64,000 nt of DNA from an uncultured Rhodobacteraceae bacterium. Its GTDB lineage: Bacteria > Pseudomonadota > Alphaproteobacteria > Rhodobacterales > Rhodobacteraceae. A program made the translations under genes and the position numbers. Under the pieces are notes generated by a model. That model saw nothing but the letters and a program-made list of their open reading frames with translations, ran no database searches and was not told where the DNA came from. Where the stretch lies: positions 3,200 through 67,199 of the forward strand of contig CALESR010000270.1 of the NCBI GenBank assembly GCA_937907485.1, in the 5' to 3' direction. Shown in pieces: positions 1 to 13,971 of this stretch (its first letter is position 1; every line of letters starts with the position of its first letter).

Positions 1-2
1 CG

Positions 3-743
3 ATCCCCGGCTTTGCCATTCTGGCGGGCTATGAGGCGGTGCGCGTGCTGCGGCCGCTGTTCGTCACGCCCGAGAGGGTTCTGGCCTGCGAGTTCCAGCG
101 CCTTGATGCTGCGCTCTTTGGCTTTGGCAGCGGCCTGACCCCGGCGGATTTCTTTGCCCGCCATCACGGGCTGGTGGCGGATCTGGTCTTTGGCCTGCCC
201 TATACCGTGTTCTGGGCGATGGTGCTGCTGTGGTGCGTGCTGTTGTTCCTGATCTCGCGCGGGCGGTTTCGGCGCTATCTGTGGGTGCTGGCGCTGACGC
301 ATCTGGCGGCCTTTGTCGTCTGGATGCTGCTGCCCGCTGCGCCGCCGTGGTATGTGCGCGCGCATGCCTGCGTCATCGACCTGAGCGTCGCGCCGCAGGC
401 CGCTGCCCTCAGCCGCCTCGATGCGCTGTTCGGCATCCGCTATTTCGAGGCCTTCTATAGCCGCGCGCCCACGGTCTTTGGCGCCTTTCCCTCGCTGCAT
501 GTGGCCTTTCCGGCGGTGGCGATGGTGACGGGCTGGCGCTGGTTCGGTCCGGCGGGGCGGGCCGTCACCGCCGCACTGACCCTGTGGATGATCGCGGCGA
601 GCGTGTATCTCGATCACCATTGGCTGATCGACGGGCTGGCGACGCTGGGGCTGGTGCTGGCGCTGCACGCTGTGCTGGTGCGGCTTTGGCCGGCCTATGC
701 GGCGCCCGATCCGGGCGCGCGCTGGCGCGAGGGGCCGCGATGA
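3..743 (+). CDS. Aur1-like inositol phosphorylceramide synthase / PAP2-superfamily phosphotransferase (5'-truncated by window edge)
   Basis: Frame is open from base 3. Membrane protein with PAAPPWY, VFGAFPSLH and YLDHHWLID, which parallel the fungal Aur1 conserved blocks (PAxxPWY, FGAFPSLH, HHYFVD) including both catalytic His and the Asp. Confidence 0.78.
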   Translation: MPGFAILAGYEAVRVLRPLFVTPERVLACEFQRLDAALFGFGSGLTPADFFARHHGLVADLVFGLPYTVFWAMVLLWCVLLFLISRGRFRRYLWVLALTHLAAFVVWMLLPAAPPWYVRAHACVIDLSVAPQAAALSRLDALFGIRYFEAFYSRAPTVFGAFPSLHVAFPAVAMVTGWRWFGPAGRAVTAALTLWMIAASVYLDHHWLIDGLATLGLVLALHAVLVRLWPAYAAPDPGARWREGPR

Positions 744-1891
744 CCCTGGAAATTCTGCCCGTGCTGGACCGCCGGTTGCTGGCGCAGTTCATCGACCTGC
801 CGCCCGCCCTGTATCAGGGTCTTGCGGGCTTTGTGGCGCCGCTGCGGATGGAGCGGGCGATGATGCTGGACCCGCGCAAGGCGCCGTTCTTTCGGCGCGG
901 GACGGTGCGGTATTGGCTGGCCCGGCGCGACGGGGTGACCGTGGGGCGGATTTCGGCGCAAATCGCCGCGGATCGGCCGGTCGGCGTGCCCGAGGCGACG
1001 GGCATGTTCGGCTGTCTCGATGCGATTGATGATCGCGCGGTGATCGCTGGGCTGATCGCCAAGGCCGAGGGCTGGCTGGCGAGACAGGGTTGCCGCCACG
1101 CCTTTGGGCCCTTCATGCTGAACATGAACGGCGAGCCGGGACTGCTGATCGACGGTTTTGAACAGCCGCCGATGACCCAGACGCCTTGGCACCCGCCCTA
1201 TCTGCGCGGCCATCTCGAGGCTCTGGGCTATGCCAAGTGGAAGGATCTGAATTCGTGGCGGCTCGATCTGCGCGGGGTCGAGGCCGCCACATTGCGCCAG
1301 TCCCTGCGCCTGCCGCGGCGGCGCGGCGAGGTGACCGCGCGGCCGATCACCCGGCGGTCGTTGCGGGCCGACCTGCCGATCCTGCGCGACCTTTACAACG
1401 ACGGCTGGCGCGACAACTGGGGGCATGTGCCGCTGAGCCTCAATGACCTGCAGGGCCTGCGCCTGCTGGCGCCCTTCCTGCCGCGCGAAACCGGCCGGGT
1501 GATCGAAATTGACGGCGCACCCGTGGCGATCTTGCTGGGCATTCCGGACATTTTCGAACTGTCGCGCGGGTTGGGGCCGCGGCCCTCGCCGTTGGGTTGG
1601 CTGCGGCTGGCCTGGCGCTCGCTGCGCTTTCGGCCGCGCAGCGGGCGCATCATCGTGATGGGGATCGCCGCGAACCTTCGCTACAGCGCTGCCGGGGCGG
1701 CGATCCTGTTGACACTGCTCGACGAGATGATCGACCAGCAGCAAGCCCTCGGCCTCGAGGCAATCGAAGGGGGCTGGGTATTGGAAGATAACGTCGCATT
1801 GACACGGCTGCTGGTTCGTTACAACTTTGCCGCCACACGGACTTTTCGCATCTTCGGCAAGACCTTCTCCGACGATGCCAGCCAGGGATAA
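740..1891 (+). CDS. bcerS: GNAT-fold acyltransferase of the YghO/bacterial ceramide synthase (bCerS) family
   Basis: ATG at 740 overlaps the upstream stop (ATGA). Motifs GRISAQI, GMFGCLDAIDD, AEGWL, GPFMLNMNGEPGLLIDGF, PWHPPY, GYAKWKDL, YNDGWRDNWGHVP and GWVLEDN match my recollection of this family. It lies near an SPT-like gene. Confidence 0.68.
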   Translation: MTLEILPVLDRRLLAQFIDLPPALYQGLAGFVAPLRMERAMMLDPRKAPFFRRGTVRYWLARRDGVTVGRISAQIAADRPVGVPEATGMFGCLDAIDDRAVIAGLIAKAEGWLARQGCRHAFGPFMLNMNGEPGLLIDGFEQPPMTQTPWHPPYLRGHLEALGYAKWKDLNSWRLDLRGVEAATLRQSLRLPRRRGEVTARPITRRSLRADLPILRDLYNDGWRDNWGHVPLSLNDLQGLRLLAPFLPRETGRVIEIDGAPVAILLGIPDIFELSRGLGPRPSPLGWLRLAWRSLRFRPRSGRIIVMGIAANLRYSAAGAAILLTLLDEMIDQQQALGLEAIEGGWVLEDNVALTRLLVRYNFAATRTFRIFGKTFSDDASQG

Positions 1892-1898
1892 CAGCTCG

Positions 1899-2240
1899 AT
1901 GACCGACAGCGACGTCAACATGGCCCCACCCGCCGAGCCCGAACGCGGCCCGGCGCCAACCGAGTGGCCGGTCCTGCCCGAAGAGGGGATGCTGGACAAG
2001 ATCCTGAAGATCGTGGTCGACGAGGGCAAGGTCGAGGCCGACGCCGTGCAACCCGTGGCCACCTTGGAATCGCTGGGCCTGATCTCGATCGACGTCATCA
2101 GCATCCTGATGGGAATCGAGGAGGAATTCGACGTCTATCTGCCGATGAGCGAGGAACTCTCCTCGGCGCGCAATCTGGCCGAGTTGATCGCCGTCATGGT
2201 CGCGCAGATGCGGCCGGACGAACTCAAGTCCATCGGCTGA
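1899..2240 (+). CDS. Dedicated acyl carrier protein (start may be 1899, 1920 or 1989)
   Basis: Small acidic protein with ATLESLGLISIDVISILMGIEEEFDV. The 4'-phosphopantetheine Ser is retained, in an atypical ISI rather than DSL context. Confidence 0.8.
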   Translation: MTDSDVNMAPPAEPERGPAPTEWPVLPEEGMLDKILKIVVDEGKVEADAVQPVATLESLGLISIDVISILMGIEEEFDVYLPMSEELSSARNLAELIAVMVAQMRPDELKSIG

Positions 2241-2248
2241 CCGGGGTC

Positions 2249-3466
2249 ATGGTGCGGGTCGCAATCACCGGATTTGGCGCCGTCAGTGCGGCTGGCATCG
2301 GCGCCGAGGCCCTGTGGCAGGCCGCGCGTGACGGGGTGTCGGGGGTGCGGCCGCTGGACATGCCCCGCAGCGAAACGCTGCGCGTGCGCATTGCGGCCGG
2401 TGTGCCGGAGTTTGATGCGGCGGCGTTGCTGGGCGGGTCGGTTCCCCGCACCAGCGAGCGCTTCAGCCAGTTCGCGATGGTCGCCGCCGCCGAGGCCGTG
2501 GCGCAGTCGGGGATCACCGCCGAGCAACTGGCCGGGCGACGCAGCGCGACGATCATCGGCACCGGGGTCGGCGGTGTCGGTACGATCGACGACAATTGTT
2601 ATCTCTTTTACAGCGAACAGCACTCCGGCGTGCGCGGCGAGGCGATGTCGGTGCCGCGCGTGATGCCCAGCTCTGCCGTGTCGCATGTGTCGATTGCGCA
2701 TGGCATCACCGGGCCCAGTTTCGGCATCGTCAGCGCCTGCGCCTCGGGGGCACAATCCATCGGCGTGGCGATGCAGATGATTCGGTCGGGCATGGTGGAC
2801 CGCGCGCTGGCGGGTGGCACCGAGGCCTGCATCACCCCGGTGACGATGCGCGGTTGGGAGATGCTGCGCGTGCTGTCACCGCGCGCCTGCCAGCCGTTTT
2901 CGGCGGACCGCACCGGCATGGTGCTGGGCGAGGGCGCGGCGGTGTTCTTGCTGGAATCCGAGGAGTCGGCCCACGCACGCGGCGCGACAGTGCTGGCGTG
3001 GCTGGACGGCTATGGCACCAGCAGCGATGCGCGCGACATGATCCAGCCCGATGCCGAGGGCGCGGCCACCGCGATGCGCGAGGCACTGGCGGATGCGGGC
3101 GTCACGCCGGGGCAGATCGGCTATGTCAACGCGCATGGCACCGGCACCGTGCTCAATGACGTGAACGAGGCCGCCGCCCTGCGCGCCGTCTTCGGAGAGG
3201 CGATTCAATCGGTGCCGGTGTCGTCGTCAAAGCCGATTCTGGGCCATACGTTGGGGGCCGCCGGGGCGCTGGAACTGGTCGTCGCGGTGCAGGCCCTTCG
3301 GCATCAGATGGTGCCGCCGCAGGTAAACCTGACCCGGCCCGACCCGAAATGTGCGCTGAACCTGCCAACCGGCGCGGCGCAACCGGCCGACCTCGACGCC
3401 GTGCTGTCGAATTCCTTTGCCTTTGGCGGCATCAACGCCGTGTTGCTGGTGCGCCGCGCGCCATGA
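2249..3466 (+). CDS. Beta-ketoacyl-ACP synthase II family (FabF/NodE-like)
   Basis: Catalytic Cys-His-His triad in SACASG, NAHGTGT and GHTLGAAG; C-terminal SNSFAFGGINA. The segment WEMLRVLSPRACQPFSADRTGMVLGEG resembles NodE-type enzymes. Confidence 0.92.
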   Translation: MVRVAITGFGAVSAAGIGAEALWQAARDGVSGVRPLDMPRSETLRVRIAAGVPEFDAAALLGGSVPRTSERFSQFAMVAAAEAVAQSGITAEQLAGRRSATIIGTGVGGVGTIDDNCYLFYSEQHSGVRGEAMSVPRVMPSSAVSHVSIAHGITGPSFGIVSACASGAQSIGVAMQMIRSGMVDRALAGGTEACITPVTMRGWEMLRVLSPRACQPFSADRTGMVLGEGAAVFLLESEESAHARGATVLAWLDGYGTSSDARDMIQPDAEGAATAMREALADAGVTPGQIGYVNAHGTGTVLNDVNEAAALRAVFGEAIQSVPVSSSKPILGHTLGAAGALELVVAVQALRHQMVPPQVNLTRPDPKCALNLPTGAAQPADLDAVLSNSFAFGGINAVLLVRRAP

Positions 3467-3864
3467 GCGCCGCGCCGCGCGCCCTTGGCACCTATGAGGT
3501 CACCGTCGAGGCCGCAGCCGCAGCCGCCCTCGCCGCCGCCTTGGGGCGGAGGGGCCCCGAGGGCCCCGTGCCGCTGACCTATCCGCTGATCTGGCTGGCG
3601 GCGCCTGCCGTCCGTCTGGCCTTGCAGGCCGAACTGGCGGGTGAGGGGGCCCTGGCCCTGCCGGTCCACATTGAACAGCGCATTGCGCTGAGCGCGCCCT
3701 TGGTGATCGGTGCGGCCTATCGGCTGGTTCTGACCCTCGACGGTCCCGATGCGCGGCGCATTCTGCGGCTCGACGGCACGCTGCACGACAGCGCCGGGCA
3801 AGAGGTGGGCACCCTGCGCACCGGCCTTGCACTGGTGGCACTGCCGCAGGGCGCAGGCGCATGA
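3463..3864 (+). CDS. Hot-dog-fold protein, probable non-catalytic partner of the downstream MaoC dehydratase
   Basis: ATGA-coupled to the KS. P(L)TYP and PVHIEQRIALSAPLVIG pattern is typical of MaoC N-terminal/HadA-like subunits; no DxNPxH motif. Confidence 0.55.
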   Translation: MSAAPRALGTYEVTVEAAAAAALAAALGRRGPEGPVPLTYPLIWLAAPAVRLALQAELAGEGALALPVHIEQRIALSAPLVIGAAYRLVLTLDGPDARRILRLDGTLHDSAGQEVGTLRTGLALVALPQGAGA

Positions 3865-4259
3865 GCGGCGCGCTGCCTGTCGGTACGCGCCTGCCGGGTG
3901 TCGATCTGCCGCTGGCCGATGCCGAGGCGGTGCAGGCCTATCTGGCGGTGTCTGGCGATGACAACCCGCTGCACCGCGACCCCTCGATGGCGCGCGCGGC
4001 GGGCTTTGACGATAGTCTGGTGCCGGGGATGCTGGTGATGGGCCAGATGGCCGAGGTGCTGCACAATTGGCCCGCCTGCGCCGCGATCGACTGGATGCTG
4101 TGCCGCTTTGTCGATCCGGTGATCGTTGGCACTGCGCTGCGCTGCGAGGGGCGGGTTGTGGCGCAGGATCCTTCGGGAGGCGTGATCCTGCGGCTGACGG
4201 CAGGGGTCGGGCGGCGCCCTGCTGTGGTGGCCGAGGCGCTCATCCGCCCGTCGCCCTGA
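3861..4259 (+). CDS. MaoC-family (R)-hydroxyacyl dehydratase
   Basis: Hydratase motif SGDDNPLHRDPSMARAAGFDDSLVPGML and RFVDPV; ATGA-coupled to the upstream ORF. Confidence 0.82.
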   Translation: MSGALPVGTRLPGVDLPLADAEAVQAYLAVSGDDNPLHRDPSMARAAGFDDSLVPGMLVMGQMAEVLHNWPACAAIDWMLCRFVDPVIVGTALRCEGRVVAQDPSGGVILRLTAGVGRRPAVVAEALIRPSP

Positions 4260-5367
4260 GGCGTCGGCGCATCCGCCAGCCGCCGATCCCCAGCGCCAGC
4301 GCGCAGCCCCCCAACACTGCGACGGGCAGGCCCCAGGCGGCCCAGACCGGCGCGATGCGCCCGTATTCCCCCAGCGCGGAAAAGACGTTGCCGCCCAGAT
4401 TCAGCGCATAGGCCGCGCCGAGGATGACCAGCGGCGTCATCAGCCCGCGCCGCGCCGCCAGCCAGCGCAGGCTGAGGCTGGCGACCAGCAGCGCCATCGC
4501 CACCATGGCGGCCAAGGCCGCATGGCGCTCGTTCAGTGCGGCGCGATAGGCGTCGGCGGCCGGAACGCCGCCCGCGGCGTGCGCAATGCGCGTCAGTGCG
4601 TCCTGCGGCACCAGGCGGGGCTCGACCCCGGCATGGGCCAGCCAGTCGGTGTTGATGGCCAAGGGCACGCGGGCGTCGCTCGGGCCCCCGGCTGGCCAAG
4701 TGGCATGGGCGCCCGTCAACAGAACGGCGCCGTCAACCGGGCGCGCCTCGTCAGCCCAGATCACCCGCTCCAGCCGGTTTTCGCCGTCCAGAAGGAACAG
4801 CCGCAGATCGACCAGCACCGGCCCTGTGGCCTCGAACCGCAGACCGGCATGGACCAGCGCCGCCCCGAAATCATGCCATTCGGGCGGCGCGCTGCCGCCT
4901 GCGAAGCCTGCGCCGTAATAGCGAAACCCGGCCTCGCCCTGCGCCTTGACGGCATGGGGGCGCACATGGGCCAGCAGCGCGACTTGCGCCAGACCAAAGG
5001 CCACCCCGACCACCAGCGCGGGCATCAGCGACAACAGGGGCGCCCGCCCGGTGTTGGCGATCATCGCGCGCTCGTGCCCGCGTGTCAGGTCGAATTCCAC
5101 CCAAAGGATGCCGATCCCCATGCCGATCGGCAGGATTGCAGGCAAGTTGTAGAGCGCACGCAGCCACAGATACCAGGCCAGACGGGGGGCGCCCTCGGGC
5201 ATCGCGGCCACGCCCTGGGCCGTCAGCACCCGGTCGTAATGCCCGGCCAGATCCAGCGCCAACACCAGCGCCAACGCCAGCGCCACCACCAGCGCGGTGC
5301 GCAGTGCATAAAGCCGGGCGACATAGCGGGTTTCCAGCCCGAAGACGGCGAGCGGCGGGCGGGTCAC
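4240..5367 (-). CDS. LptF/LptG-family permease (LptG-like paralog)
   Basis: GTG at 5367 overlaps the stop of the upstream permease. RYV..Y N-terminus, three N-terminal TMs, LPAILPIG...E..M...G motif, periplasmic beta region, three C-terminal TMs with P..AAW.P. Confidence 0.7.
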   Translation of the reverse strand: MTRPPLAVFGLETRYVARLYALRTALVVALALALVLALDLAGHYDRVLTAQGVAAMPEGAPRLAWYLWLRALYNLPAILPIGMGIGILWVEFDLTRGHERAMIANTGRAPLLSLMPALVVGVAFGLAQVALLAHVRPHAVKAQGEAGFRYYGAGFAGGSAPPEWHDFGAALVHAGLRFEATGPVLVDLRLFLLDGENRLERVIWADEARPVDGAVLLTGAHATWPAGGPSDARVPLAINTDWLAHAGVEPRLVPQDALTRIAHAAGGVPAADAYRAALNERHAALAAMVAMALLVASLSLRWLAARRGLMTPLVILGAAYALNLGGNVFSALGEYGRIAPVWAAWGLPVAVLGGCALALGIGGWRMRRRLRATGG

Positions 5368-6524
5368 AATCGTATCCCCTGAGGCAGAACCGATCCCGGC
5401 AAAAGCCGGGCCATCAGCCACGACACCAGCGCGACCAGTGCCAGCGCCAACCCGGCCACCGAGGCCAGGGCCGCCCCAGGCGGCAGACCGCCCAGCAGCG
5501 CCGCGCCCGGCGACAGTGCCAGCCCACCGCCGAGCACCGCACCCAAGGCCACCGGCAGCGCCGCCAACCGCAGCGGTCCGCGAGTCGCCGCCAGCGCCAG
5601 CCCGGCGATCAGCGGCGCGGTCAGTGCCAGCGCCATGCCCAGCACCCGTTCCAGCGCGACCTGTCCGGCGCGCGCATTTCCGCCGAACCAGTCCTGCACC
5701 ACCTCGGGCAGGGTCGCCGTGCGCAGGGTTTCCCCCGGGCCCGGTGCGCCCGGCAGGTCGATGCGCACCGGACCCAGACGCATGCGCTCGACAGCGATCT
5801 GCAGCCCGGCGGTGCGCGTCTGCCCCTCGGTGCGGGAGAACTGGATGATCCGTGCGCCTTCGAGGTCGAGCGCGCCACTCGCCGCGCCGGTGTCGAGGAT
5901 CAGCCGGGTACGCGCGGCGGTGACCACTTGCTCTTCATCGGGATTCGGCCTGAGGAAAACGAAACTGCGTGCCCCGTCGCGGCCCTGCGGCTGCTGGTAA
6001 AAGGTCGTGCTGCCGATGCTCAGGAACCGCCCCTCGATCAGCTGCCCCTGTCGCACGGCCTCGAACTGCGCCTCGATCAGGCGCTGCGTCAGATGCCGGG
6101 CCGCCAGAGGTTCGACAAAACCGCGTAGGCCACCGGCGAGGGTCATCGCGACCAGACCCAGCAGCAGGCAAAAGCCGATCAAGGCGCGCGGTGGCACCCT
6201 GGCCGCGGCGAGAATCACCAGATCACCCGCCTCGCGCCGTCGCAGCAGCGCCAGATAGACCGCGATCACCACCGCCAGTGGCAGGCCGACCGACAGGATC
6301 TCGGGCGAGGCCAGAACCAGCGTCTGAGCAAGGAACCCCAGCCCCAACTGGTTGCGCAGCGTGTCGAACAGCAGATGCGTGACCATCTTGTCGGAAAGGT
6401 AAAGCGCCTCGACCGCCAGAAGCATCAGCGCCATCTGCCCGATGACCTCGCGGCCCAGCACACGCAGATAGCGGCGCGGCAGGCGGGCGGTTCGGGGCGT
6501 GGCGAGCTGGGGGGCGGTTTGCAT
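5364..6524 (-). CDS. LptF/LptG-family permease (LptF-like paralog)
   Basis: RRYLRVLGRE, PEILSVGLPLA..IAVYLALLRRREAGDLVILAAA, FVEPLA and IEGRF follow the YjgP/YjgQ pattern. Confidence 0.75.
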   Translation of the reverse strand: MQTAPQLATPRTARLPRRYLRVLGREVIGQMALMLLAVEALYLSDKMVTHLLFDTLRNQLGLGFLAQTLVLASPEILSVGLPLAVVIAVYLALLRRREAGDLVILAAARVPPRALIGFCLLLGLVAMTLAGGLRGFVEPLAARHLTQRLIEAQFEAVRQGQLIEGRFLSIGSTTFYQQPQGRDGARSFVFLRPNPDEEQVVTAARTRLILDTGAASGALDLEGARIIQFSRTEGQTRTAGLQIAVERMRLGPVRIDLPGAPGPGETLRTATLPEVVQDWFGGNARAGQVALERVLGMALALTAPLIAGLALAATRGPLRLAALPVALGAVLGGGLALSPGAALLGGLPPGAALASVAGLALALVALVSWLMARLLPGSVLPQGIRL

Positions 6525-6531
6525 GGGCGGG

Positions 6532-7272
6532 CTATCGCGCTGGGCCAAGCCAGAGCGCCCGCAGCGCCGGGTCGCCGGCGATCTCGTCAGGGGGCGCGTC
6601 ATGCAGCACGATGCCCTGCGCGATCACGACCACGCGGTCGCAGATCGACAATGTGTCGTGCACATTGTGGTCGGTGACCAGAATGCCGATGCCCCGCGCG
6701 GCCAGATCGCGGATCTGCGCCTTGACCTGTGCAATCGACAGCGGGTCGAGCCCGGAAAACGGCTCGTCCAGCAGCAGATACCGTGGCTGAACGGCAAGGA
6801 GCCGGGCGATTTCGCAGCGCCGCCGTTGCCCGCCCGATACCTGCCGCGGTTTGGCGTCCCGCACCTCGGTCAGGCCCATGTCGCTCAGCAGAGTCTCCAG
6901 TCGCGCCTCGCGGATGGAGCGGTCGGGTTCGTGGTTTTGCAGCGCCAGACGGATATTGTCGGCCAGGCTGAGGCCGCGAAAGGCCGAGGGTTCCTGCGGC
7001 AGATAGCCAAGGCCGCAGCGCGCGCGTGCGTAAGGTGCAAGGCCGGTCAGGTCGCGTCCGTCGAGCAGCACTCGGCCACGGTCGGGCGACTCGGCGCCGG
7101 TCAGCAGGCGGTAGATCGTGGTTTTCCCGGCGCCATTCGGCCCCAGCAGACCGACGATCTGGCCGGGTTGCACGGCAAAGCTGGCATCCGCAACCGCCTG
7201 CACGCCGCGATAGCGCTTTGACAGACCGACCGCAGCTAGCGAGGGCAGGGTGTCAGGGGGGCCGTCGGTCAT
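6532..7272 (-). CDS. LptB-like ABC ATPase
   Basis: Walker A GPNGAGKTT, LGYLPQEPSAFRGL, signature VSGGQRRRCEIAR, Walker B LLLDEPFSGLDP, and the LptB-typical GIGILVTDHNVHDTL. ATG at 7272 is coupled to the upstream stop. Confidence 0.9.
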   Translation of the reverse strand: MTDGPPDTLPSLAAVGLSKRYRGVQAVADASFAVQPGQIVGLLGPNGAGKTTIYRLLTGAESPDRGRVLLDGRDLTGLAPYARARCGLGYLPQEPSAFRGLSLADNIRLALQNHEPDRSIREARLETLLSDMGLTEVRDAKPRQVSGGQRRRCEIARLLAVQPRYLLLDEPFSGLDPLSIAQVKAQIRDLAARGIGILVTDHNVHDTLSICDRVVVIAQGIVLHDAPPDEIAGDPALRALWLGPAR

Positions 7273-8261
7273 GACGCCGATTTCGGCCCGGACGGCATCG
7301 CGCCCAGTCCCAGTGCCACCACGCCGACGATCAGCACCGTCACCAGCATGAGGCCTTGATGCAGCACGCCGATGGCGATGGCCTGCGCAGGGGGGGTGCC
7401 CAGCGCGGCATAGGTCGAGACCACCGCCAGGGCCTGTGGGCCCAGATGCACCGGCGCCAGCGGCAGCAGCGACACCAGACTGATCGAGGCCACCGCCAGC
7501 AGCGCCAGCGCGGGCGAGGCCTGAATACCCAGCGCGTGCTGCAGCGCCAGCGCGGCGGCGACCTCGAGCGCCTTCTTGGCCAGCGCCAGTATGGTTCCCG
7601 GCACCAGCACCCGGCGGCGCAGCAACTGCCCGACGTCCGACGCATAGCGGGCGATCACCCCGCCGATCCGCGCCGTCCAACGCTGCCCAAAGCGGCGCAA
7701 AGCGAAGAGCAGCAGGCCCAGTCCCAGCATCCCGGCGGTCAGCGCAAGGGTCGCGTGGCGCAGCGACTCTGGCAGCGGGGCGAGCGCAAGAGCCAGCGCC
7801 AGCAAGGCCAGTTTGGCCGCTCCGGCCAGCACCTGATCGAGGGTCATGACCCCCGTGGCCTCGGCCGGCGTCAATCCGGCATGGGCGTGCAGCGCCGCGG
7901 CCCCCGTGGCGACACCGCCGAGGCCGGACACCGCAAACCGCGCGCCGATCGACAGCGCGACAACCTGCGCCATCACCGGCCAGCGCACCCGGCGCAGCGG
8001 TGCGGCAAGGCACCGCCATTGCCAGACCCAGAGAGGATAGACCGCCAGACTGGCCGCCAGCGCCAGCGCCAGCAAGGCAGAATCTGTCGCGGCCAGTGCA
8101 AGGCCGACCTGCTGCCACGGCGTCAGAACGATCCCCAGAACCAGCAATCCGCCGATGACCAGCGCCGCACCCGCCACCACCAGCCGCCGACCTCGGCCCA
8201 AAGGGCCAGTCGAGCGCAGCGGCGCATGCAGCGAGGCTGCGTCGCGATGTCCTATGCGCAT
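7269..8261 (-). CDS. YbhN/UPF0104 (lysylphosphatidylglycerol synthase TM domain) flippase-like membrane protein
   Basis: Polytopic hydrophobic protein with W.W..L, LPLAPVHLGPQ..AV...Y..LG and A.AIGVLH.G, the typical LPG_synthase_TM layout. Start is uncertain. Confidence 0.68.
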   Translation of the reverse strand: MRIGHRDAASLHAPLRSTGPLGRGRRLVVAGAALVIGGLLVLGIVLTPWQQVGLALAATDSALLALALAASLAVYPLWVWQWRCLAAPLRRVRWPVMAQVVALSIGARFAVSGLGGVATGAAALHAHAGLTPAEATGVMTLDQVLAGAAKLALLALALALAPLPESLRHATLALTAGMLGLGLLLFALRRFGQRWTARIGGVIARYASDVGQLLRRRVLVPGTILALAKKALEVAAALALQHALGIQASPALALLAVASISLVSLLPLAPVHLGPQALAVVSTYAALGTPPAQAIAIGVLHQGLMLVTVLIVGVVALGLGAMPSGPKSAS

Positions 8262-8340
8262 GCCGGGGTTACCAACTGGCTGGTGAAGGGGACAGAAGCT
8301 TGATATCTGGAATTGTTAGTCAAATCAGGATGAGAAAGCA

Positions 8341-9423
<1,083 letters not shown>

Positions 9424-9444
9424 GGGCGGTGGCGACAGGGGCGG

Positions 9445-10677
9445 ATGATGGGCGAGGGCGCGGCAACCGGACGGTCGTTCAACGAGGTGATGGGCAAGCG
9501 CATTGCCCGCGCGTTTCAGCGCGTTGCCGAGGGGATGAGCGCCGACGAGTTCAACCGCTCTGGCGCGCGGGAGGCCTTTTTTGCCCCGATCGACGCATTG
9601 GAGTCCGCGACCACGGCGCAAGGTGGGCAGTTTCTCAGCTTTGGCCATTACGACTATCTCGGGTTGACGCGGCACCCTGCGGTGATCGAGGCGGGGGTGG
9701 CGGCGCTGCGCCAGCATGGCAGCGGTGCGGGCGCCTCGCGGCTGGTCGGCGGCGAAAGGCTGGCCCACCGCGCGCTTGAAACCGCGATGGCGCGGTTCCT
9801 CGGGGTGGATGCGACGCTGGCGGTCATCAGTGGGTATCTGACCAACCTGTCGCTGATCCCGCATCTGCTGACCGCAAAGGATCTGCTGATCCTCGACGAT
9901 CTGGCGCACAACTCGATCGCCAGCACGGCCCGCATTGGCGGTTATGCCTGCCGGACCTTTGCTCACAACGATTGCGACGCGCTCGAACGTATCCTGACCA
10001 CGGAACGTGCCCGCTATCGCCATGTGCTGATTGTCACCGAGGGGCTGTTCTCGATGGATGGCGACATCCCGGACCTGCCGCGGATTCTGGCGCTCAAGGA
10101 GGCCCACAACGCCTGGCTGATGCTGGACGAGGCGCATTCCTATGGCGTGCTGGGGGCGACAGGGCGCGGCATCACCGAACATTTCGGCGTCGATCCGCGA
10201 CGAGTCGATATCTCGGTCGGCACGTTGTCCAAGAGTTTCGGCGCCTCGGGCGGGTTGATCGTCGCCGCCGAGCACGTCATCGAATGGCTGCGTTATACAC
10301 TGCCGGGCTTTGTGTTCAGCGTCGGCCTGTCGCCGGTTGCCGTGGCGACGGTGCATGCGGCGCTGGATCTGCTGATCGCCGAGCCCGAGCGACTGGCCCG
10401 CATGAACGAGGCGTCGCGGTATTTCCTGGCGCAGGCGCGGGCGGCGGGGCTGAACACTGGCCCGGCGATCGGAACGGCGGTGGTGCCGGTGATCTTTGCC
10501 GATACCCAGCAAACCATGCTGGCGGCCCGGCGGCTGCGCGAGGCGGGCATTTATGCCCCGCCGGTGGCGACGGTCGGCGTGCCCTCGGACAGTCCGCGCA
10601 TTCGGTTTTTCCTGACGGCGAATCACACAACCGCCGATATCGACCGCGCGATAGCCGTGCTGGTCGGGTCAGCCTGA
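9445..10677 (+). CDS. PLP-dependent alpha-oxoamine synthase, serine-palmitoyltransferase-like (RkpG/WcbT-type)
   Basis: YDYLGL, SGYLTN, DLAHNSI, EGLFSMDGD, DEAHSYG, and PLP-lysine motif GTLSKS. The family is certain; serine/acyl substrate is inferred from context. Confidence 0.85.
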   Translation: MMGEGAATGRSFNEVMGKRIARAFQRVAEGMSADEFNRSGAREAFFAPIDALESATTAQGGQFLSFGHYDYLGLTRHPAVIEAGVAALRQHGSGAGASRLVGGERLAHRALETAMARFLGVDATLAVISGYLTNLSLIPHLLTAKDLLILDDLAHNSIASTARIGGYACRTFAHNDCDALERILTTERARYRHVLIVTEGLFSMDGDIPDLPRILALKEAHNAWLMLDEAHSYGVLGATGRGITEHFGVDPRRVDISVGTLSKSFGASGGLIVAAEHVIEWLRYTLPGFVFSVGLSPVAVATVHAALDLLIAEPERLARMNEASRYFLAQARAAGLNTGPAIGTAVVPVIFADTQQTMLAARRLREAGIYAPPVATVGVPSDSPRIRFFLTANHTTADIDRAIAVLVGSA

Positions 10678-11484
10678 CGGGCCTTCGCCCTCGCCCGGAT
10701 CGGGGGCACTGCCGGTGTGTTTCAGACTGTAGGTCAGGATGCGGTCGACCAGCGCGTCTGGCGCCAAGGCCCCCAGCGCCACCGCCAGCCGCAGGGGCCA
10801 GGGAAAGGCGCTGATTCGCGCGCCGCGCGCGACGTCGTGGGCGATGCGCTGCGCCGCGCGCTCGGCGCTCCACAGCCAGGGGCGCGGGGTGGTCAGCGAC
10901 TGGCTCATCGGGGTATCGACAAAGCCCGGCAGCACCAGCGTCACCGCAACACCCTGCGGGCGCAGCAACCGGCGCGTCCCCTCGGCATAGATCCTGAGGG
11001 CGGCCTTGGACGCGGAATAGACCGGCGCCTGCGGCAACCCGATGCCCCCCTGAACCGAGCCGATGATGACCACATGCCCGGCGCCGCGTTGCGCCATGCG
11101 GGGCTGCAAGGGAGTCAACGTGTTCAGCACGCCCATCATGTTCACCGCCATCAGGTCGCGGGCCTGCGCGCCCCGCTCGCCGCCCGGTGGCGCCAGTGCG
11201 CGCCCGCCGCCCAGGCCCGCCCCGGCGATCACCAGATCGACCGCTTGCCGCTGGTCGCACCCCTCGATCCAGGGTTCCAGGCGGTCGTGGTCGGTGACGT
11301 CGATGCGGGCGGCCTCGACCGTGGCGCCGCGCTGGCGGCAGGCCTCGGCAGTGGCGGCCAGCCGCTCGGCGTCGCGGCCATTGAGCGACAGCGCACGACC
11401 CGGCGCGGCGTAATGCAGCGCCAGCGCACGGCCGATGCCGCTGCTCGCGCCGGTAATCAGCACATGCTGGGGTTTGGTCCGCAT
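10669..11484 (-). CDS. Classical short-chain dehydrogenase/reductase (RkpH/WcbP-like; candidate 3-ketosphingoid reductase)
   Basis: ITGASSGIG, catalytic YSASK, PGFVDTPM; AAGGAG Shine-Dalgarno upstream of ATG 11484. Confidence 0.85.
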   Translation of the reverse strand: MRTKPQHVLITGASSGIGRALALHYAAPGRALSLNGRDAERLAATAEACRQRGATVEAARIDVTDHDRLEPWIEGCDQRQAVDLVIAGAGLGGGRALAPPGGERGAQARDLMAVNMMGVLNTLTPLQPRMAQRGAGHVVIIGSVQGGIGLPQAPVYSASKAALRIYAEGTRRLLRPQGVAVTLVLPGFVDTPMSQSLTTPRPWLWSAERAAQRIAHDVARGARISAFPWPLRLAVALGALAPDALVDRILTYSLKHTGSAPDPGEGEGPSG

Positions 11485-11604
11485 TGAGGGCTCCTTGCCC
11501 TGTGGTGGTATCACGCGCGCCGGGTTCCTCGCCAGTCGGAACGACGGGATGGCGGCTTTGTCGGCCTGTCGCTATGCTGGCCGCGCCGCCAGAAGGGGTC
11601 TGCC

Positions 11605-12207
11605 TTGCGCATCCATGAACCGTTCGTCGAACCCGTTGCCCGCCGTCTGGTGGGGTCCGGCATCAGCCCCGATGCGCTGACGCTGGCCTCGGTGCCACCG
11701 GCGGTGCTCGCCGGGGTCTGCGCGGCCGTCGGCTGGTTCGAGGCGGCGGCGCTGGCCTTCACACTTAGCGGTGTGCTCGACCTGCTCGATGGGGCGCTGG
11801 CGCGGGCGATGGATCGGCGCAGCCGGTTCGGCGCCTTGCTCGATTCGTCGCTTGACCGGGTCGCGGATGCCTGTGTGCCGATCGGGCTGGTGGTGTTTTA
11901 CAGTGCGCAGGGCGGGCTGGCCGCAATCCCGGCGCTGGCGCTGCTGGCGTCGCTGTGGGTCTCGTATATCCGCGCGCGGGCGCAGTCGCTGGCGCTGGAA
12001 CTGCCCCGGCTGTGGATGCGCCGCGAGGACCGCTTTGTCGCGCTGGTGCTGGCGCTGCTGGCGGCGCGCTGGGTGGCGCCCGAGTCTGACGTGCCCGCGG
12101 TGCTGCTGCTGTGGGTCTGCGCTGCCATCGCGGTTCTGGGGATGATTGCCGGTGGCATGGCGCTGGTGCAGGCGGCACGACTGGCCCGTCAACCGCCCGA
12201 GGCGTGA
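11605..12207 (+). CDS. CDP-alcohol phosphatidyltransferase, probable phosphatidylinositol-phosphate synthase
   Basis: Signature DLLDGALARAMDRRSRFGALLDSSLDRVAD, plus SYIRARAQSL and RREDR as in PIP/AIP synthases. Near ino1. TTG start is uncertain. Confidence 0.88.
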   Translation: MRIHEPFVEPVARRLVGSGISPDALTLASVPPAVLAGVCAAVGWFEAAALAFTLSGVLDLLDGALARAMDRRSRFGALLDSSLDRVADACVPIGLVVFYSAQGGLAAIPALALLASLWVSYIRARAQSLALELPRLWMRREDRFVALVLALLAARWVAPESDVPAVLLLWVCAAIAVLGMIAGGMALVQAARLARQPPEA

Positions 12208-13070
12208 TTGCCCCAGTCCGCCGCAAAGACCGCGATGGCCGTGGCGTCATTCTGGCCCGAGCGGTTTGGCCCGTCGGTCAGCGCCTGAATCGCCGAGGCG
12301 AGGGTCTCGACCGGAAAGCTGCGGGTCGGCACCACCAGCCGCGGCACGCCGCGCCGCGCCAGATGCCCCGAGACCCAGACATCATCGACCCAGCGCACGG
12401 CCTCGGGCATGCCCGAGAAATCGTGCACCGCCGCATCCAGCGCCCTCGGCGGCAGCAGATAGCCCCAGGTGCCAAACAGGATATCGACCGGGACCAGCCG
12501 GGTCTGCGCACTGCACAGAACGTGGTGCAGCGCGGGAAACTCTCGCCCCGGCGTCAGGCACACGCCACGCAGGCCCAGCGCGGCGGTGGGGTTCGCCCGG
12601 TGTGCAGTCAGCAGCGAGGCCAGAAAATCGCGCGGATAGACCACGTCATCATCGACAACCACGAGGCAGGCGTCGGGGTCAGCCGCCAGTGTTGGCAACA
12701 GCTTGGTCACCGGGCCTTCGTCGGTGCAGCGCAGCACCTCGACACCGGGCGGCAGACCCAGCGTCTGTGGGTCAGGATAGGCCGCGCCGTCGCGTCGGCG
12801 GGTCCGGGGCAGGCACAGCACGATGCGGTCGGCGGGCTGGGACTGGTCGATCAGACTGCGCAGGACGCGGTGCAGCCGATGCGCGCGGGCGGGAATCGTG
12901 GTCAGCGTCACCACCAGCCGTTCGGGCCGCGGTGTGGCGGGCACTGGAGCGGGCACCCGCCAGCCCAGCCGCAGCGCCCGCAGATACAGCCCGGCGATCT
13001 GCGCCAGACTGGGCTGGCGATAGCGCGCAAGACTGCGGGCGATGTTTTGCAACAGGGGCACTTTGGTCAT
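12189..13070 (-). CDS. GT-A fold glycosyltransferase (GT2-like)
   Basis: VVTLTTIPAR, LRSLIDQS, DEGPVTKLLP, acidic VVVDDDVVYP, late DDVWVSG. ATG at 13070 is coupled to the upstream stop. Confidence 0.7.
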   Translation of the reverse strand: MTKVPLLQNIARSLARYRQPSLAQIAGLYLRALRLGWRVPAPVPATPRPERLVVTLTTIPARAHRLHRVLRSLIDQSQPADRIVLCLPRTRRRDGAAYPDPQTLGLPPGVEVLRCTDEGPVTKLLPTLAADPDACLVVVDDDVVYPRDFLASLLTAHRANPTAALGLRGVCLTPGREFPALHHVLCSAQTRLVPVDILFGTWGYLLPPRALDAAVHDFSGMPEAVRWVDDVWVSGHLARRGVPRLVVPTRSFPVETLASAIQALTDGPNRSGQNDATAIAVFAADWGNHASGG

Positions 13071-13840: not shown

Positions 13841-13971
13841 GGGATATCCAGCAGGGATCAGCGCGCAGGATACGGTGACCGGCGCAGGGTTTCAACCGGC
13901 GCGGCATCGCGGCCAATTGCACAGGGTGCGCCTCGCGGTCTAGGGTCGGGTGCACGACAAAGGACCGCCCT

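What the first reader, a model, noticed from the sequence alone, without database searches (positions are those of the whole stretch)
3..743. Aur1-type IPC synthase with near residue-for-residue fungal catalytic blocks
PAAPPWY ... LSRLDALFGI ... VFGAFPSLH ... VYLDHHWLID follows my recollection of yeast Aur1 (PAASPWY ... LARIDKLLGI ... IFGAFPSLH ... MYLTHHYFVD) in order and spacing. It is translationally coupled to the bCerS-like gene, which suggests substrate hand-off.
Basis: partly seen in the sequence, partly recalled or inferred. Interest (0 to 1): 0.72.

Follow-up and report, generated by a model that had tools for sequence, protein, structure and literature searches.

The report
Aur1-like inositol-phosphoceramide synthase gene
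A wastewater Rhodobacteraceae bacterium carries a membrane enzyme closely modelled on yeast inositol-phosphorylceramide synthase, as the first gene of an operon inside a cluster that also supplies inositol, phosphatidylinositol and a ceramide-like lipid. It therefore probably makes inositol sphingolipids, which are unreported in this bacterial group.

Summary
The frame at 3-743 is the C-terminal 246 residues of a 308-aa PAP2_3 protein that starts 183 nt upstream of the window.

- **Match to yeast Aur1:** all four quoted blocks are present and match Aur1 in order and spacing (±1 residue). The Aur1 triad H255/H294/D298 corresponds to H228/H268/D272, invariant in 79 homologs.
- **Structure:** an AlphaFold model (pLDDT 96) hits only Aur1 strongly in the PDB (E 5e-9). 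The next hits, LpxE, PgpB and SMSr, are at E 0.06-0.2.
- **Operon:** a 4-nt ATGA overlap joins the gene to a 383-aa protein. That protein's family sits next to Spt, a CerR-like reductase and LptF/G in canonical sphingolipid clusters, so it is bCerS-like.
- **Cluster:** it also holds inositol-phosphate synthase, a PIP-synthase-like gene, a flippase-like gene, LptB/F/G paralogs, an oxoamine synthase and an SDR. This parallels Bacteroides BT_1521-1526.
- **Fusions:** family members occur fused to CDP-alcohol transferase, PgpA, GtrA, flippase-like and MMPL domains.

Most likely it transfers phosphoinositol from PI to a ceramide-like acceptor at the periplasmic face (confidence about 0.6; no biochemistry). 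I class it as a new member of a known kind. It is rare: 0 of 700 other sampled genomes of its class and family carry it. Direct substrate hand-off from the coupled gene is not supported.

The parts
3..743 (+). C-terminal 246 of 308 residues of the PAP2_3 / Aur1-like phosphoinositol transferase. The gene starts 183 nt upstream of window base 1. Catalytic codons: H228 at 498-500, H268 at 618-620, D272 at 630-632. The PAAPPWY block is at 333-353.
740..1891 (+). 383-aa bCerS-like (YghO-type GNAT-fold) N-acyltransferase. Its ATG overlaps the PAP2_3 stop (ATGA).
   Evidence: No Pfam or NCBIfam hit. Homologs 34-37% identical sit beside an Spt that passes the NCBIfam cut-off, a CerR-like reductase, a FAAL and LptF/G in L041 and L045.
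1899..2240 (+). Dedicated acyl carrier protein
   Evidence: PF00550; ACP models
2249..3466 (+). FabF-type beta-ketoacyl-ACP synthase
   Evidence: PF00109 and PF02801; fabF model 401 bits, below its cut-off
3463..3864 (+). HadA-like hot-dog subunit, ATGA-coupled on both sides
   Evidence: Weak HadA match; no Pfam hit; junctions
3861..4259 (+). MaoC/HadB-like dehydratase subunit
   Evidence: PF01575; HadB models
4240..6602 (-). LptG-like (4240-5421) and LptF-like (5364-6602) permease paralogs
   Evidence: PF03739 for both; conserved next to PAP2_3 in L004, L006, L091 and L093
6532..7272 (-). LptB-like ABC ATPase (start approximate). A second LptB at 47% identity lies on contig C179.
   Evidence: TIGR04406 264 bits, above its cut-off of 240
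7269..8261 (-). LPG_synthase_TM / flippase-like membrane protein (counterpart of BT_1521)
   Evidence: PF03706; TIGR00374 flippase-like
8341..9423 (+). myo-inositol-phosphate synthase
   Evidence: PF01658; TIGR03450 477 bits
9445..10677 (+). Alpha-oxoamine synthase, Spt-like by context only
   Evidence: PF00155. bioF model 335 bits and Spt models 203-287 bits, all below cut-off. The same type is found in all five other cluster-bearing genomes.
10669..11514 (-). Classical SDR, candidate 3-keto reductase
   Evidence: NF005437 183 bits. A homolog lies directly upstream of PAP2_3 in L004 and L006.
11605..12207 (+). CDP-alcohol phosphotransferase of the PIP/AIP-synthase type
   Evidence: PF01066; AIP synthase 114 bits and PIP synthase 99 bits, below cut-offs
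12189..15777 (.). Head-group decoration genes: two glycosyltransferases (12189-13840, -), a polysaccharide deacetylase (13972-14691, +) and a GT4 (14680-15777, -)
   Evidence: The GT4 plus deacetylase pair is conserved in L093.

Best explanation
The gene encodes a bacterial inositol-phosphoceramide synthase of the Aur1 / BT_1522 type. It is an eight-helix inner-membrane lipid phosphotransferase whose active-site loops face the periplasm.

**Proposed chemistry.** By analogy with the mechanism established for Aur1, D272 activates H268. H268 attacks the phosphodiester of phosphatidylinositol, releasing diacylglycerol and forming a phosphoinositol-histidine intermediate. H228 then activates the C1 hydroxyl of a (dihydro)ceramide-like lipid, which takes over the phosphoinositol.

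**Where the substrates come from.** The donor is made by the cluster's own inositol-phosphate synthase and PIP-synthase-like enzyme. Dephosphorylation would fall to an unlinked PgpA in this genome; relatives carry a PgpA inside the cluster. The acceptor would be made by the oxoamine synthase, the SDR and the co-translated bCerS-like N-acyltransferase, possibly using an acyl chain from the operon's private ACP/KS/dehydratase module. The flippase-like protein would bring lipids to the outer leaflet. The product, perhaps glycosylated, would then be extracted by the dedicated LptB/F/G set.

**Shown:** homology, conserved triad, fold, operon structure, cluster conservation and domain fusions.
**Inferred:** donor, acceptor, topology, order of steps and export.
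For: - **Sequence:** PF14378 55.9 bits against a cut-off of 27. Aur1 is the only PDB chain hit, E 2e-11. NF052609 'phosphoinositol dihydroceramide synthase' is the only NCBIfam hit, 105 bits over 255 of 305 positions.
- **Catalytic residues:** Aur1 H255A, H294A and D298A abolish activity (PMC13133130). Their counterparts H228, H268 and D272, plus S226, H267, P128-Y129 and P173/A175-Y179 of the PAAPPWY block, are invariant in 79 homologs.
- **Structure:** AF2 pLDDT 96.2, pTM 0.92. Foldseek gives Aur1 at E 5.5e-9 and 2.3e-8 with TM 0.61-0.67. The next hits are LpxE 0.06, PgpB 0.13 and SMSr 0.19.
- **Context:** MIPS, a PIPS-like gene and LPG_synthase_TM are in the same cluster, plus PgpA in relatives. 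This mirrors BT_1521-1526, where deleting BT_1522 removes PI-dihydroceramide but not PI (PMC9246714).
- **Fusions in the family:** CDP-OH_P_transf+PAP2_3, PAP2_3+PgpA, GtrA+PAP2_3, PAP2_3+LPG_synthase_TM, PAP2_3+VTT and MMPL+PAP2_3.
- **Acceptor side:** the ATGA-coupled neighbour belongs to the family that sits with Spt (642 and 638 bits against a cut-off of 500), a CerR-like reductase, a FAAL and LptF/G in L041 and L045. That is the same layout as Caulobacter cerS-lptG2-lptF2 (PMC11324152). PAP2_3 lies next to or near the bCerS-like gene in L004-L007, L011, L023 and L091.
- **Tree:** the protein sits in a well-supported clade sister to Myxococcota homologs and near BT_1522-like proteins. M. 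xanthus is reported to make ceramide phosphoinositol (cited in PMC9246714).
- **Expression:** short metatranscriptome contigs at 96-97% identity cover several cluster genes. This is weak evidence.
Against: - There is no biochemical or lipid evidence for this organism or any alphaproteobacterial relative.
- The protein scores far below the NCBIfam equivalog cut-off (105 against 480 bits) and is only 28% identical to the Aur1 core.
- The genome has no canonical Spt or CerR. The oxoamine synthase passes no Spt model and scores slightly better on bioF, so the acceptor may not be a classical ceramide.
- Some relatives carry PAP2_3 with Lpt, MIPS and PIPS genes but no bCerS within 10 kb (L093). A Polyangiaceae genome with PAP2_3-MMPL has no match to the bCerS-like profile.
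- No PIP phosphatase lies in this cluster; only an unlinked PgpA exists.
- The cytoplasmic nucleotide-sugar glycosyltransferases fit awkwardly with a periplasmic transfer step.
Confidence: 0.6

Rival explanations
1. It is a head-group transferase of the same mechanism but with a different substrate pair. One version moves phosphoinositol, or an already glycosylated GlcN-inositol-phosphate, onto a non-sphingoid acceptor such as an N-acyl amino-alcohol or another glycerolipid. Another version takes the head group from PE or PG, making it a ceramide-phosphoethanolamine or ceramide-phosphoglycerol synthase.
For: - The acceptor-making genes are non-canonical: the AOS is below every Spt cut-off and there is no CerR.
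- Relatives have PAP2_3 without bCerS nearby, and one whole genome lacks a bCerS-like match.
- A GT4 plus NodB-type deacetylase pair travels with PAP2_3 in L093 and in the window. Together with the ACP/KS/dehydratase and N-acyltransferase genes this recalls NodB/NodA/NodEF-type N-acylation of a deacetylated amino sugar (my own knowledge).
Against: - MIPS and PIPS in the same cluster, and the CDP-alcohol-transferase and PgpA fusions, tie the family to PI. That argues against PE or PG as donor here.
- The coupled neighbour belongs to the bCerS family by synteny.
- A matching AOS is present in every cluster-bearing genome checked.
- AOS plus reductase plus a polyketide-type chain builder has been shown to make sphingoid bases in Pseudomonas (PMC12134224).
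Confidence: 0.22
2. It is a PAP2-type lipid phosphate phosphatase rather than a transferase. For example, it could be the PIP-to-PI phosphatase that this particular cluster lacks, or a ceramide-1-phosphate or undecaprenyl-pyrophosphate phosphatase.
For: - The H-H-D triad is shared by all PAP2 enzymes, and hydrolysis is the default side reaction (PMC13133130).
- The window's cluster has no PgpA, whereas relatives do.
- A C1-like Y-x6-R-P stretch (Y72...R79-P80) is visible in the sequence.
Against: - Generic PAP2 (PF01569) scores below its threshold, 24.0 against 27.2.
- No phosphatase appears in the PDB sequence search, even at E<=1.
- Structural matches to LpxE, PgpB and PhoN are seven orders weaker than to Aur1.
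- Aur1-specific blocks outside the triad are invariant.
- Relatives carry PgpA and PAP2_3 side by side, or fused in one protein. This argues for two consecutive steps rather than redundant ones.
- The genome has a PgpA elsewhere.
Confidence: 0.1
3. It is a horizontally acquired remnant that is no longer expressed or functional.
For: - The gene is absent from 700 other sampled genomes of the class and family, including a same-genus genome.
- The cluster's GC content (0.68-0.72) is above the rest of the window (0.60-0.67).
Against: - The frame is intact and full length, with all catalytic residues.
- Gene order is conserved, with overlapping stop/start codons, down to 48-64% identity.
- Transcript fragments of a 96-97% identical relative cover neighbouring cluster genes.
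Confidence: 0.03

Closest known systems
Saccharomyces cerevisiae Aur1, catalytic subunit of IPC synthase (PDB 9ivc, 9vj3, 9vj4; PMC12122681, PMC13133130)
   Same: - Same Pfam family (PAP2_3).
- Same H-H-D triad and flanking residues (S253, H293, P152-Y153).
- Same PAAPPWY / LxRxD / FGAFPSLH / YLxHHxxxD blocks at the same spacing.
- Best and only strong structural match (TM 0.61-0.67).
- Same predicted orientation, with the active site on the non-cytoplasmic side.
   Different: - 308 aa against 401 aa, with no long cytosolic tail.
- Only 28% identity over the core.
- No Kei1 partner is known or expected.
- The aureobasidin-resistance positions H157/F158 are not conserved in the alignment.
- On the tree, Aur1 is a long branch attached to a different bacterial subgroup.
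- The gene sits in a bacterial operon with acceptor-making genes.
Bacteroides thetaiotaomicron BT_1522, PI-dihydroceramide synthase, and its cluster BT_1521-1526 (PMC9246714; NCBIfam NF052609)
   Same: - It is the only NCBIfam model hit.
- The cluster partners are the same: LPG_synthase_TM-like, PIP synthase and MIPS, plus PgpA in relatives. GtrA appears only as a fusion partner elsewhere in the family.
- BT_1522-like representatives fall in the neighbouring clade and are retrieved by this family's profile at about 200 bits.
   Different: - The score is 105 bits against an equivalog cut-off of 480, so it is not an ortholog by NCBI's rule.
- In Bacteroides the ceramide genes are unlinked. Here bCerS-like, AOS, SDR, ACP/KS/dehydratase and LptB/F/G are in the same cluster.
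- No PgpA lies in this window's cluster.
Caulobacter crescentus sphingolipid region (spt, acpR, cerR, aasR, cerS CC_1154, lptF2/lptG2/lptC2, flippase CC_1166; PMC11324152, PMC11087976)
   Same: - The bCerS-type acyltransferase lies next to dedicated LptF/G paralogs and a putative flippase.
- Anionic phospho-sphingolipids are destined for the outer membrane.
   Different: - Caulobacter makes ceramide phosphoglycerate with different head-group enzymes and no PAP2_3, MIPS or PIPS.
- It uses a canonical Spt and an NDUFA9-like CerR, both absent here.
- Here LptB is duplicated too.
Pseudomonas fluorescens PfSgaABC, polyketide-derived sphingolipids (PMC12134224)
   Same: A chain-building module, a non-canonical alpha-oxoamine synthase and a separate 3-keto reductase together supply the sphingoid base.
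   Different: - Pseudomonas uses an iterative type I PKS. Here the module is type II ACP/KS/HadAB-like.
- No inositol head-group genes were described there.

Membership tests
Aur1-type IPC synthase (Pfam PF14378 PAP2_3, lipid phosphotransferase fold) | Match to PF14378 above the gathering threshold | tested here: met
   55.9 bits against 27, covering profile positions 5-189 of 190
Aur1-type IPC synthase (Pfam PF14378 PAP2_3, lipid phosphotransferase fold) | His-His-Asp catalytic triad (Aur1 H255, H294, D298) | tested here: met
   H228, H268 and D272 align to the triad and are invariant in 79 homologs. The triad is defined by mutagenesis in PMC13133130.
Aur1-type IPC synthase (Pfam PF14378 PAP2_3, lipid phosphotransferase fold) | Aur1-specific blocks outside the triad (PAAPPWY, LxRxDxLxGI) in the same order and spacing | tested here: met
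   Spacing is 25/22/43 against 26/22/42. Six of the seven PAAPPWY positions are invariant in the family.
Aur1-type IPC synthase (Pfam PF14378 PAP2_3, lipid phosphotransferase fold) | Fold closest to Aur1 among solved structures | tested here: met
   Foldseek E 5.5e-9 and 2.3e-8 for 9vj4_A and 9ivc_A. The next hit is at E 0.06.
Aur1-type IPC synthase (Pfam PF14378 PAP2_3, lipid phosphotransferase fold) | Obligate Kei1 partner subunit | not tested
   No Kei1 sequence or model was at hand. No candidate small membrane partner is conserved next to the gene in the loci examined.
Aur1-type IPC synthase (Pfam PF14378 PAP2_3, lipid phosphotransferase fold) | Aureobasidin A contact and resistance residues (H157, F158) | tested here: not met
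   In the phmmer alignment the Aur1 stretch LPYGLFHFGAP aligns to LPYTVF-WAMV. P-Y is kept, H157/F158 are not.
Aur1-type IPC synthase (Pfam PF14378 PAP2_3, lipid phosphotransferase fold) | Transfer of phosphoinositol from PI to ceramide | not testable with these tools
   This needs an enzyme assay or lipidomics.
Bacteroides-type PI-dihydroceramide synthase (NCBIfam NF052609, BT_1522) | Score at or above the equivalog cut-off (480 bits) | tested here: not met
   105.3 bits. The B. thetaiotaomicron control genome passes.
Bacteroides-type PI-dihydroceramide synthase (NCBIfam NF052609, BT_1522) | Clustered with MIPS, PIP synthase, PgpA-type PIP phosphatase and an LPG_synthase_TM-like gene | tested here: met
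   MIPS, PIPS-like and LPG_synthase_TM are in the window. PgpA is in the cluster in relatives but unlinked here.
Bacteroides-type PI-dihydroceramide synthase (NCBIfam NF052609, BT_1522) | Falls inside the BT_1522 clade on a tree | tested here: not met
   It lies in a separate, well-supported clade with other alphaproteobacterial-cluster proteins, sister to Myxococcota. BT_1522-like representatives (356-370 bits on NF052609) form the neighbouring clade. BT_1522 itself could not be fetched.
Generic PAP2 lipid phosphate phosphatases (PgpB, LpxE, LpxF, PhoN; PF01569) | Match to PF01569 above the gathering threshold | tested here: not met
   24.0 bits against 27.2
Generic PAP2 lipid phosphate phosphatases (PgpB, LpxE, LpxF, PhoN; PF01569) | C1 motif K-x6-R-P | tested here: inconclusive
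   By inspection the sequence has Y72-x6-R79-P80 (YEAVRVLRP), so Lys is replaced by Tyr. These positions are in the family consensus but not among the columns conserved at 90% or more.
Generic PAP2 lipid phosphate phosphatases (PgpB, LpxE, LpxF, PhoN; PF01569) | Closest structural or sequence relatives are phosphatases | tested here: not met
   No phosphatase in the PDB phmmer search at E<=1. Foldseek E is 0.06-1 for LpxE, PgpB and PhoN.
Bacterial ceramide synthase bCerS (Caulobacter CC_1154 type), for the coupled neighbour at 740-1891 | Homologs lie in clusters with Spt, CerR, an acyl-ACP synthetase and LptF2/G2 | tested here: met
   L041 and L045: Spt 642 and 638 bits against a cut-off of 500, an epimerase-type reductase, a FAAL and LptF/G next to homologs 34-37% identical. 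About half of 80 loci have an AOS within 10 kb. No direct alignment to CC_1154 was possible.

The most novel reading that the evidence does not exclude
The enzyme could be the committed step of a self-contained, horizontally mobile pathway for a glycosyl-inositol-phosphoceramide-like outer-membrane glycolipid in Alphaproteobacteria. The anchor would be built from a private type II fatty-acyl module, a non-canonical oxoamine synthase and a bCerS-like acyltransferase. The inositol head group would be decorated by GT4, deacetylase and other glycosyltransferase enzymes, possibly through GlcNAc-to-GlcN steps as in GPI synthesis. The lipid would be exported by its own complete LptB2FG machine. The conserved upstream Wzm/Wzt transporter and GT4 may add a polymer. 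That would amount to a sphingolipid-anchored analogue of LPS or of eukaryotic GIPC/GPI-type glycolipids.
Probability: 0.25. Interest if true: 0.8.

Novelty: new member of a known kind. Interest (0 to 1): 0.55.

Why it matters
Bacterial inositol sphingolipids have a genetically defined synthase only in Bacteroides, and are chemically documented in a few Bacteroidota and in Myxococcus. I found nothing in the held literature about them in Rhodobacteraceae or about this gene cluster.

Other bacterial loci link an Aur1-like gene to ceramide genes without any clue to the head group. This cluster physically joins head-group supply (MIPS, PIPS), acceptor synthesis, the transferase, a flippase-like protein and a dedicated LptB/F/G set. 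It therefore makes a precise, testable prediction: inositol-phosphoceramide, probably glycosylated, in the outer membrane.

It also offers a compact gene set for heterologous reconstitution and for asking how non-LPS lipids use Lpt paralogs. A small, Kei1-independent bacterial homolog of the antifungal target Aur1 could be a convenient model for the enzyme's mechanism.

Tried and rejected
- **BT_1522 for a direct alignment and tree.** It is only in the unnamed control set. I used NF052609 scores of family representatives as a proxy.
- **Generic PAP2 outgroup.** I had no trustworthy PgpB or LpxE sequences in the Python box, so the tree has no such outgroup. The question 'does it cluster with phosphatases' was answered through Pfam thresholds, the PDB sequence search and Foldseek instead.
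- **PgpA in the genome.** tblastn with a relative's PgpA found nothing, but the Pfam model found one on contig C139. I dropped the idea that the genome lacks any PIP-phosphatase candidate.
- **DUF4833 as the counterpart of BT_1524.** Rejected, because the paper describes BT_1524 as GtrA-like.
- **Canonical Spt, CerR and AasR homologs.** None are in the genome, so I do not call the AOS 'Spt'.
- **Substrate hand-off through translational coupling.** Rejected as unsupported, because the predicted compartments differ.
- **Expression evidence.** Only short metatranscriptome contigs of a 96-97% relative were found, and none clearly covers the PAP2_3 gene. I treat this as weak.
- **Literature on inositol ceramides in Alphaproteobacteria or Rhodobacteraceae.** The search found nothing relevant.
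Full report
**What is there**

The window is contig C270:3200-67199 of a 3.6-Mb, 99.6%-complete metagenome-assembled genome. The open frame at 3-743 is the 3' part of a gene that begins upstream of the window. On the contig it starts at an ATG 183 nt before window base 1 (a GTG 18 nt further up is possible). It encodes 308 aa, the same length as its nearest homologs.

The four quoted blocks are present at 333-353, 408-437, 474-500 and 603-632. The stop codon overlaps the ATG of the next gene (ATGA at 740-743). Further ATGA overlaps at 3463-3466 and 3861-3864, and gaps of 7-8 nt between the other genes, tie six genes into one operon. In order they are PAP2_3, a 383-aa protein, ACP, a FabF-type ketosynthase, a HadA-like subunit and a MaoC/HadB-like subunit.

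**Is the resemblance to Aur1 real?**

Yes.
- Pfam places the protein in PAP2_3 (55.9 bits, cut-off 27). Generic PAP2 is below threshold at 24.0 against 27.2.
- phmmer against every PDB chain returns only yeast Aur1, E 2e-11, even at a permissive E<=1.
- In that alignment PAAPPWY is identical, and the other blocks match at 6/10, 8/9 and 5/10. The spacing between blocks agrees within one residue.
- Overall identity in the core is only 28%, so the match is concentrated in the catalytic loops.
- The cryo-EM and mutagenesis work on Aur1 defines H255, H294 and D298 as essential, with S253 and H293 as helpers (PMC13133130). These correspond to H228, H268, D272, S226 and H267. All five, and six of the seven PAAPPWY positions, are invariant in an alignment of 79 homologs down to 35% identity.
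- An AlphaFold2 model built on that alignment is very confident (pLDDT 96.2, pTM 0.92).
- In a Foldseek search of the PDB the model hits Aur1 at E 5.5e-9 and 2.3e-8 (TM 0.61-0.67). The next matches are LpxE, PgpB, PhoN-type acid phosphatases and SMSr, at E 0.06 or worse.

**Relation to the known bacterial enzyme**

The only NCBIfam hit is NF052609, 'phosphoinositol dihydroceramide synthase', the model built on Bacteroides BT_1522. It matches nearly end to end but at 105 bits against an equivalog cut-off of 480.

A profile of this family searched against 1.84 billion representative proteins finds 266 clusters at E<=1e-30 and 1481 at E<=1e-10. Among the top 150 are proteins that score 160-370 bits on NF052609, so the two groups are parts of one continuous family.

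On a maximum-likelihood tree the window's protein sits in a clade (support 99) made of the proteins from similar clusters. That clade is sister (support 100) to homologs from Myxococcota. BT_1522-like proteins form the neighbouring clade. Yeast Aur1 is a long branch attached elsewhere. BT_1522 itself and true phosphatase outgroups could not be included.

**The surroundings**

Downstream of the operon lie these genes:

| Gene | Coordinates (strand) |
|---|---|
| LptG-like and LptF-like permeases | 4240-6602 (-) |
| LptB-like ATPase, passing its NCBIfam cut-off | 6532 to about 7272 (-) |
| LPG_synthase_TM / flippase-like protein | 7269-8261 (-) |
| myo-inositol-phosphate synthase | 8341-9423 (+) |
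| alpha-oxoamine synthase | 9445-10677 (+) |
| classical SDR | 10669-11514 (-) |
| CDP-alcohol phosphotransferase, best matched by archaetidylinositol-phosphate and PIP synthases | 11605-12207 (+) |
| two glycosyltransferases | 12189-13840 (-) |
| NodB-type deacetylase and a GT4 | 13972-15777 |

Beyond about 16.6 kb an ordinary capsule locus begins, with a CapD-like gene and Wzc.

In Bacteroides, BT_1521-1526 encode an LPG-synthase-like protein, the PI-dihydroceramide synthase, PIP synthase, a GtrA-like protein, a PgpA-type PIP phosphatase and MIPS. Deleting BT_1522 removes PI-dihydroceramide but not PI (PMC9246714). Four of those functions are in this window.

The cluster is conserved in relatives.

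| Locus | Identity | Gene content |
|---|---|---|
| L091 | 64% | Same gene order from the upstream Wzm/Wzt/GT4 through to the oxoamine synthase |
| L004/L005 (Rhodobiaceae MAG) | 52% | DUF4833, SDR, PAP2_3, bCerS-like, ACP, KS, HadA-like, MaoC, LptG/F/B, flippase-like, MIPS, PgpA, PIPS |
| L006 | about 50% | The L004/L005 gene order without the chain-building module |
| L093 | 48% | PAP2_3, LptF/G/B, MIPS, flippase-like, GT4, deacetylase and PIPS, but no acyltransferase within 10 kb |
| L094 | 35% | PIPS-aminotransferase fusion, PAP2_3, PgpA, LPG_synthase_TM |
| L090, L092 (L090 is a Polyangiaceae MAG; P0081 of L092 groups with Myxococcota on the tree) | 38-39% | PAP2_3 paired with an MMPL exporter in both; a PgpA upstream in L090 |

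Within the family there are natural fusions of PAP2_3 with CDP-alcohol transferase, PgpA, GtrA, LPG_synthase_TM, a VTT/DedA domain and MMPL. These fusions and the recurrent neighbourhood tie the family to the PIP/PI pathway and to lipid translocation.

**The coupled neighbour**

The 383-aa protein has no Pfam or NCBIfam match but has hundreds of homologs. A scan of one genome per species found 585 loci; I analysed the best 80.

About half carry an oxoamine synthase within 10 kb. Two loci show the canonical arrangement. L041 is from Robiginitomaculum, a Caulobacterales relative, and L045 is from a Steroidobacteraceae genome. In both, the homolog (34-37% identical) sits with:
- an Spt that passes the NCBIfam equivalog cut-off (642 and 638 bits against 500),
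- an epimerase-type reductase,
- a fatty acyl-AMP ligase,
- LptF/G paralogs, seen beside the homolog in L041.

This is the arrangement described for Caulobacter, where cerS (CC_1154) adjoins lptG2/lptF2 (PMC11324152). I therefore accept 'bCerS-like' by synteny, though I could not align it directly to CC_1154.

Weaker relatives (145-185 bits) occur in 13 of 300 other Rhodobacteraceae genera and may do something else.

**The acceptor is less certain than the donor**

The genome has no canonical Spt, no CerR-like reductase and no AasR-like ligase. The cluster's oxoamine synthase scores 335 bits on bioF and 203-287 bits on the Spt models, all below cut-off.

Three observations still favour a sphingoid base:
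- The same type of synthase (262-296 bits on NF047599) is present in all five other cluster-bearing genomes I could search. In three it lies in or near the cluster.
- Relatives about 50% identical sit immediately upstream of bCerS-like genes in Methylocystaceae and other loci.
- In Pseudomonas fluorescens, a non-canonical oxoamine synthase, a separate 3-keto reductase and a polyketide-type chain builder have been shown to make sphingoid bases (PMC12134224).

A ceramide-like N-acyl long-chain base is thus the most economical reading, but it is an inference.

**Mechanism proposed**

- **Shown:** homology, catalytic residues, fold, operon and cluster.
- **Topology (inferred):** from the positive-inside rule on the predicted helices, the N-terminus and the loops SRGRFRRY and WRWFGPAGR would be cytoplasmic. 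The PAAPPWY...FPSLH and YLDHH loops would be periplasmic. This matches Aur1's lumenal active site.
- **Donor supply (inferred):** MIPS makes inositol phosphate and the PIPS-like enzyme makes PIP from CDP-diacylglycerol. A PgpA gives PI; it is unlinked here on contig C139 and lies in the cluster in relatives.
- **Acceptor supply (inferred):** the oxoamine synthase, the SDR and the bCerS-like enzyme make the amide lipid, perhaps with an acyl chain from the ACP/KS/dehydratase module.
- **Transfer and export (inferred):** after flipping, H268 (activated by D272) takes phosphoinositol from PI and H228 activates the acceptor hydroxyl. The LptB/F/G set then extracts the product.
- **Unresolved:** the cytoplasmic-type glycosyltransferases do not fit neatly after a periplasmic step. 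They may act on PI before transfer.

ATGA coupling with the bCerS-like gene shows co-expression. It does not show direct hand-off, because the two active sites are predicted in different compartments.

**Distribution and origin**

The protein has no homolog at E<=1e-10 in 400 other evenly sampled genomes of the class. The same holds for 300 other genomes of the family, covering 300 genera and including a same-genus genome. The cluster's GC content (0.68-0.72) is higher than the rest of the window (0.60-0.67). Its nearest outgroup on the tree is myxobacterial. This pattern fits horizontal acquisition.

The organism, or close strains, occurs in bioreactor, sludge and wastewater metagenomes. A wastewater metatranscriptome holds short contigs, 96-97% identical, on ACP, LptF, MIPS, the oxoamine synthase, the SDR and a glycosyltransferase. 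None clearly covers the PAP2_3 gene.

**Novelty and verdict**

The enzyme kind is known: Aur1 in fungi, and BT_1522 in Bacteroides since 2022. Annotation pipelines already label some homologs 'inositol phosphorylceramide synthase'. Earlier notes of this scan report Aur1-like genes beside ceramide genes in several other phyla (unchecked by me).

What is new here is the lineage and the degree of integration. Head-group supply, acceptor synthesis, transferase, flippase-like protein, glycosyltransferases and a full LptB/F/G set lie in one cluster, which fixes the predicted head group as inositol. I found no paper describing this.

I rate it a new member of a known kind, of moderate interest, with about 0.6 confidence in the specific PI-to-ceramide reaction.

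Noticed in passing
Contig upstream of the window (L003:164-2893) and L091:4914-9808: A Wzt-type ABC ATPase with a Wzt_C domain and a divergent GT4 lie directly upstream of the PAP2_3 gene. Together with a Wzm permease and a second Wzt, they are conserved in the 64%-identical locus L091. A polymer exported by this ABC transporter may be linked to the lipid.
   Followed up: partly
window 1899-4259: A private ACP, FabF-type KS and HadA/HadB-like dehydratase pair, with no enoyl reductase, travels with the bCerS-like gene. It does so even in loci without PAP2_3 (L008 Novosphingobium MAG, L009, L012 Labrys). It looks like a separable module for a special N-acyl chain.
   Followed up: partly
P0243, P0247, P0259, P0251, P0280, P0285, P0287 (family representatives): There are natural fusions of the Aur1-like domain with LPG_synthase_TM, CDP-alcohol phosphotransferase, PgpA, GtrA, VTT/DedA and MMPL domains. 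These are the same partners as in the Bacteroides inositol-lipid cluster.
   Followed up: yes
L004:8134-8742, L006:8468-9031: A DUF4833 gene and an in-cluster PgpA accompany the cluster in Rhodobiaceae-type relatives. Both are missing from the window's version, where the oxoamine synthase occupies the position after MIPS.
   Followed up: partly
window 9445-10677 and genomes G699-G703: The cluster's oxoamine synthase belongs to a type that passes no NCBIfam Spt, BioF or Kbl cut-off. This type recurs in every cluster-bearing genome checked, and it sits directly upstream of bCerS-like genes in Methylocystaceae loci (L025, L032, L033, L038, L066).
   Followed up: partly
window 6532-7272 and contig C179:4142-4843: The genome has two LptB genes at 47% identity. 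The in-cluster copy passes the LptB equivalog cut-off. tblastn at E<=1e-5 found no second LptF/G, so the housekeeping permeases are very divergent from the cluster's copies.
   Followed up: no
window 15862-16569: A 235-aa ORF at the end of the lipid cluster has no Pfam or NCBIfam match.
   Followed up: no
P0349, P0364, P0388: Some family representatives look eukaryotic, with long N/Q/S-rich low-complexity tails. On the tree, two of the three (P0349, P0388) group inside the BT_1522-like bacterial clade and none groups with yeast Aur1.
   Followed up: partly
G406, G538, G584, G605, G618 (Rhodobacteraceae genomes): Weaker relatives of the 383-aa acyltransferase (145-185 bits) occur in 13 other genera of the family. 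Five of them were reported with one in-frame stop codon.
   Followed up: no
window 1-16000 vs 16000-64000: GC content of the lipid cluster is 0.68-0.72, except around MIPS at 0.64. The rest of the window is at 0.60-0.67.
   Followed up: no
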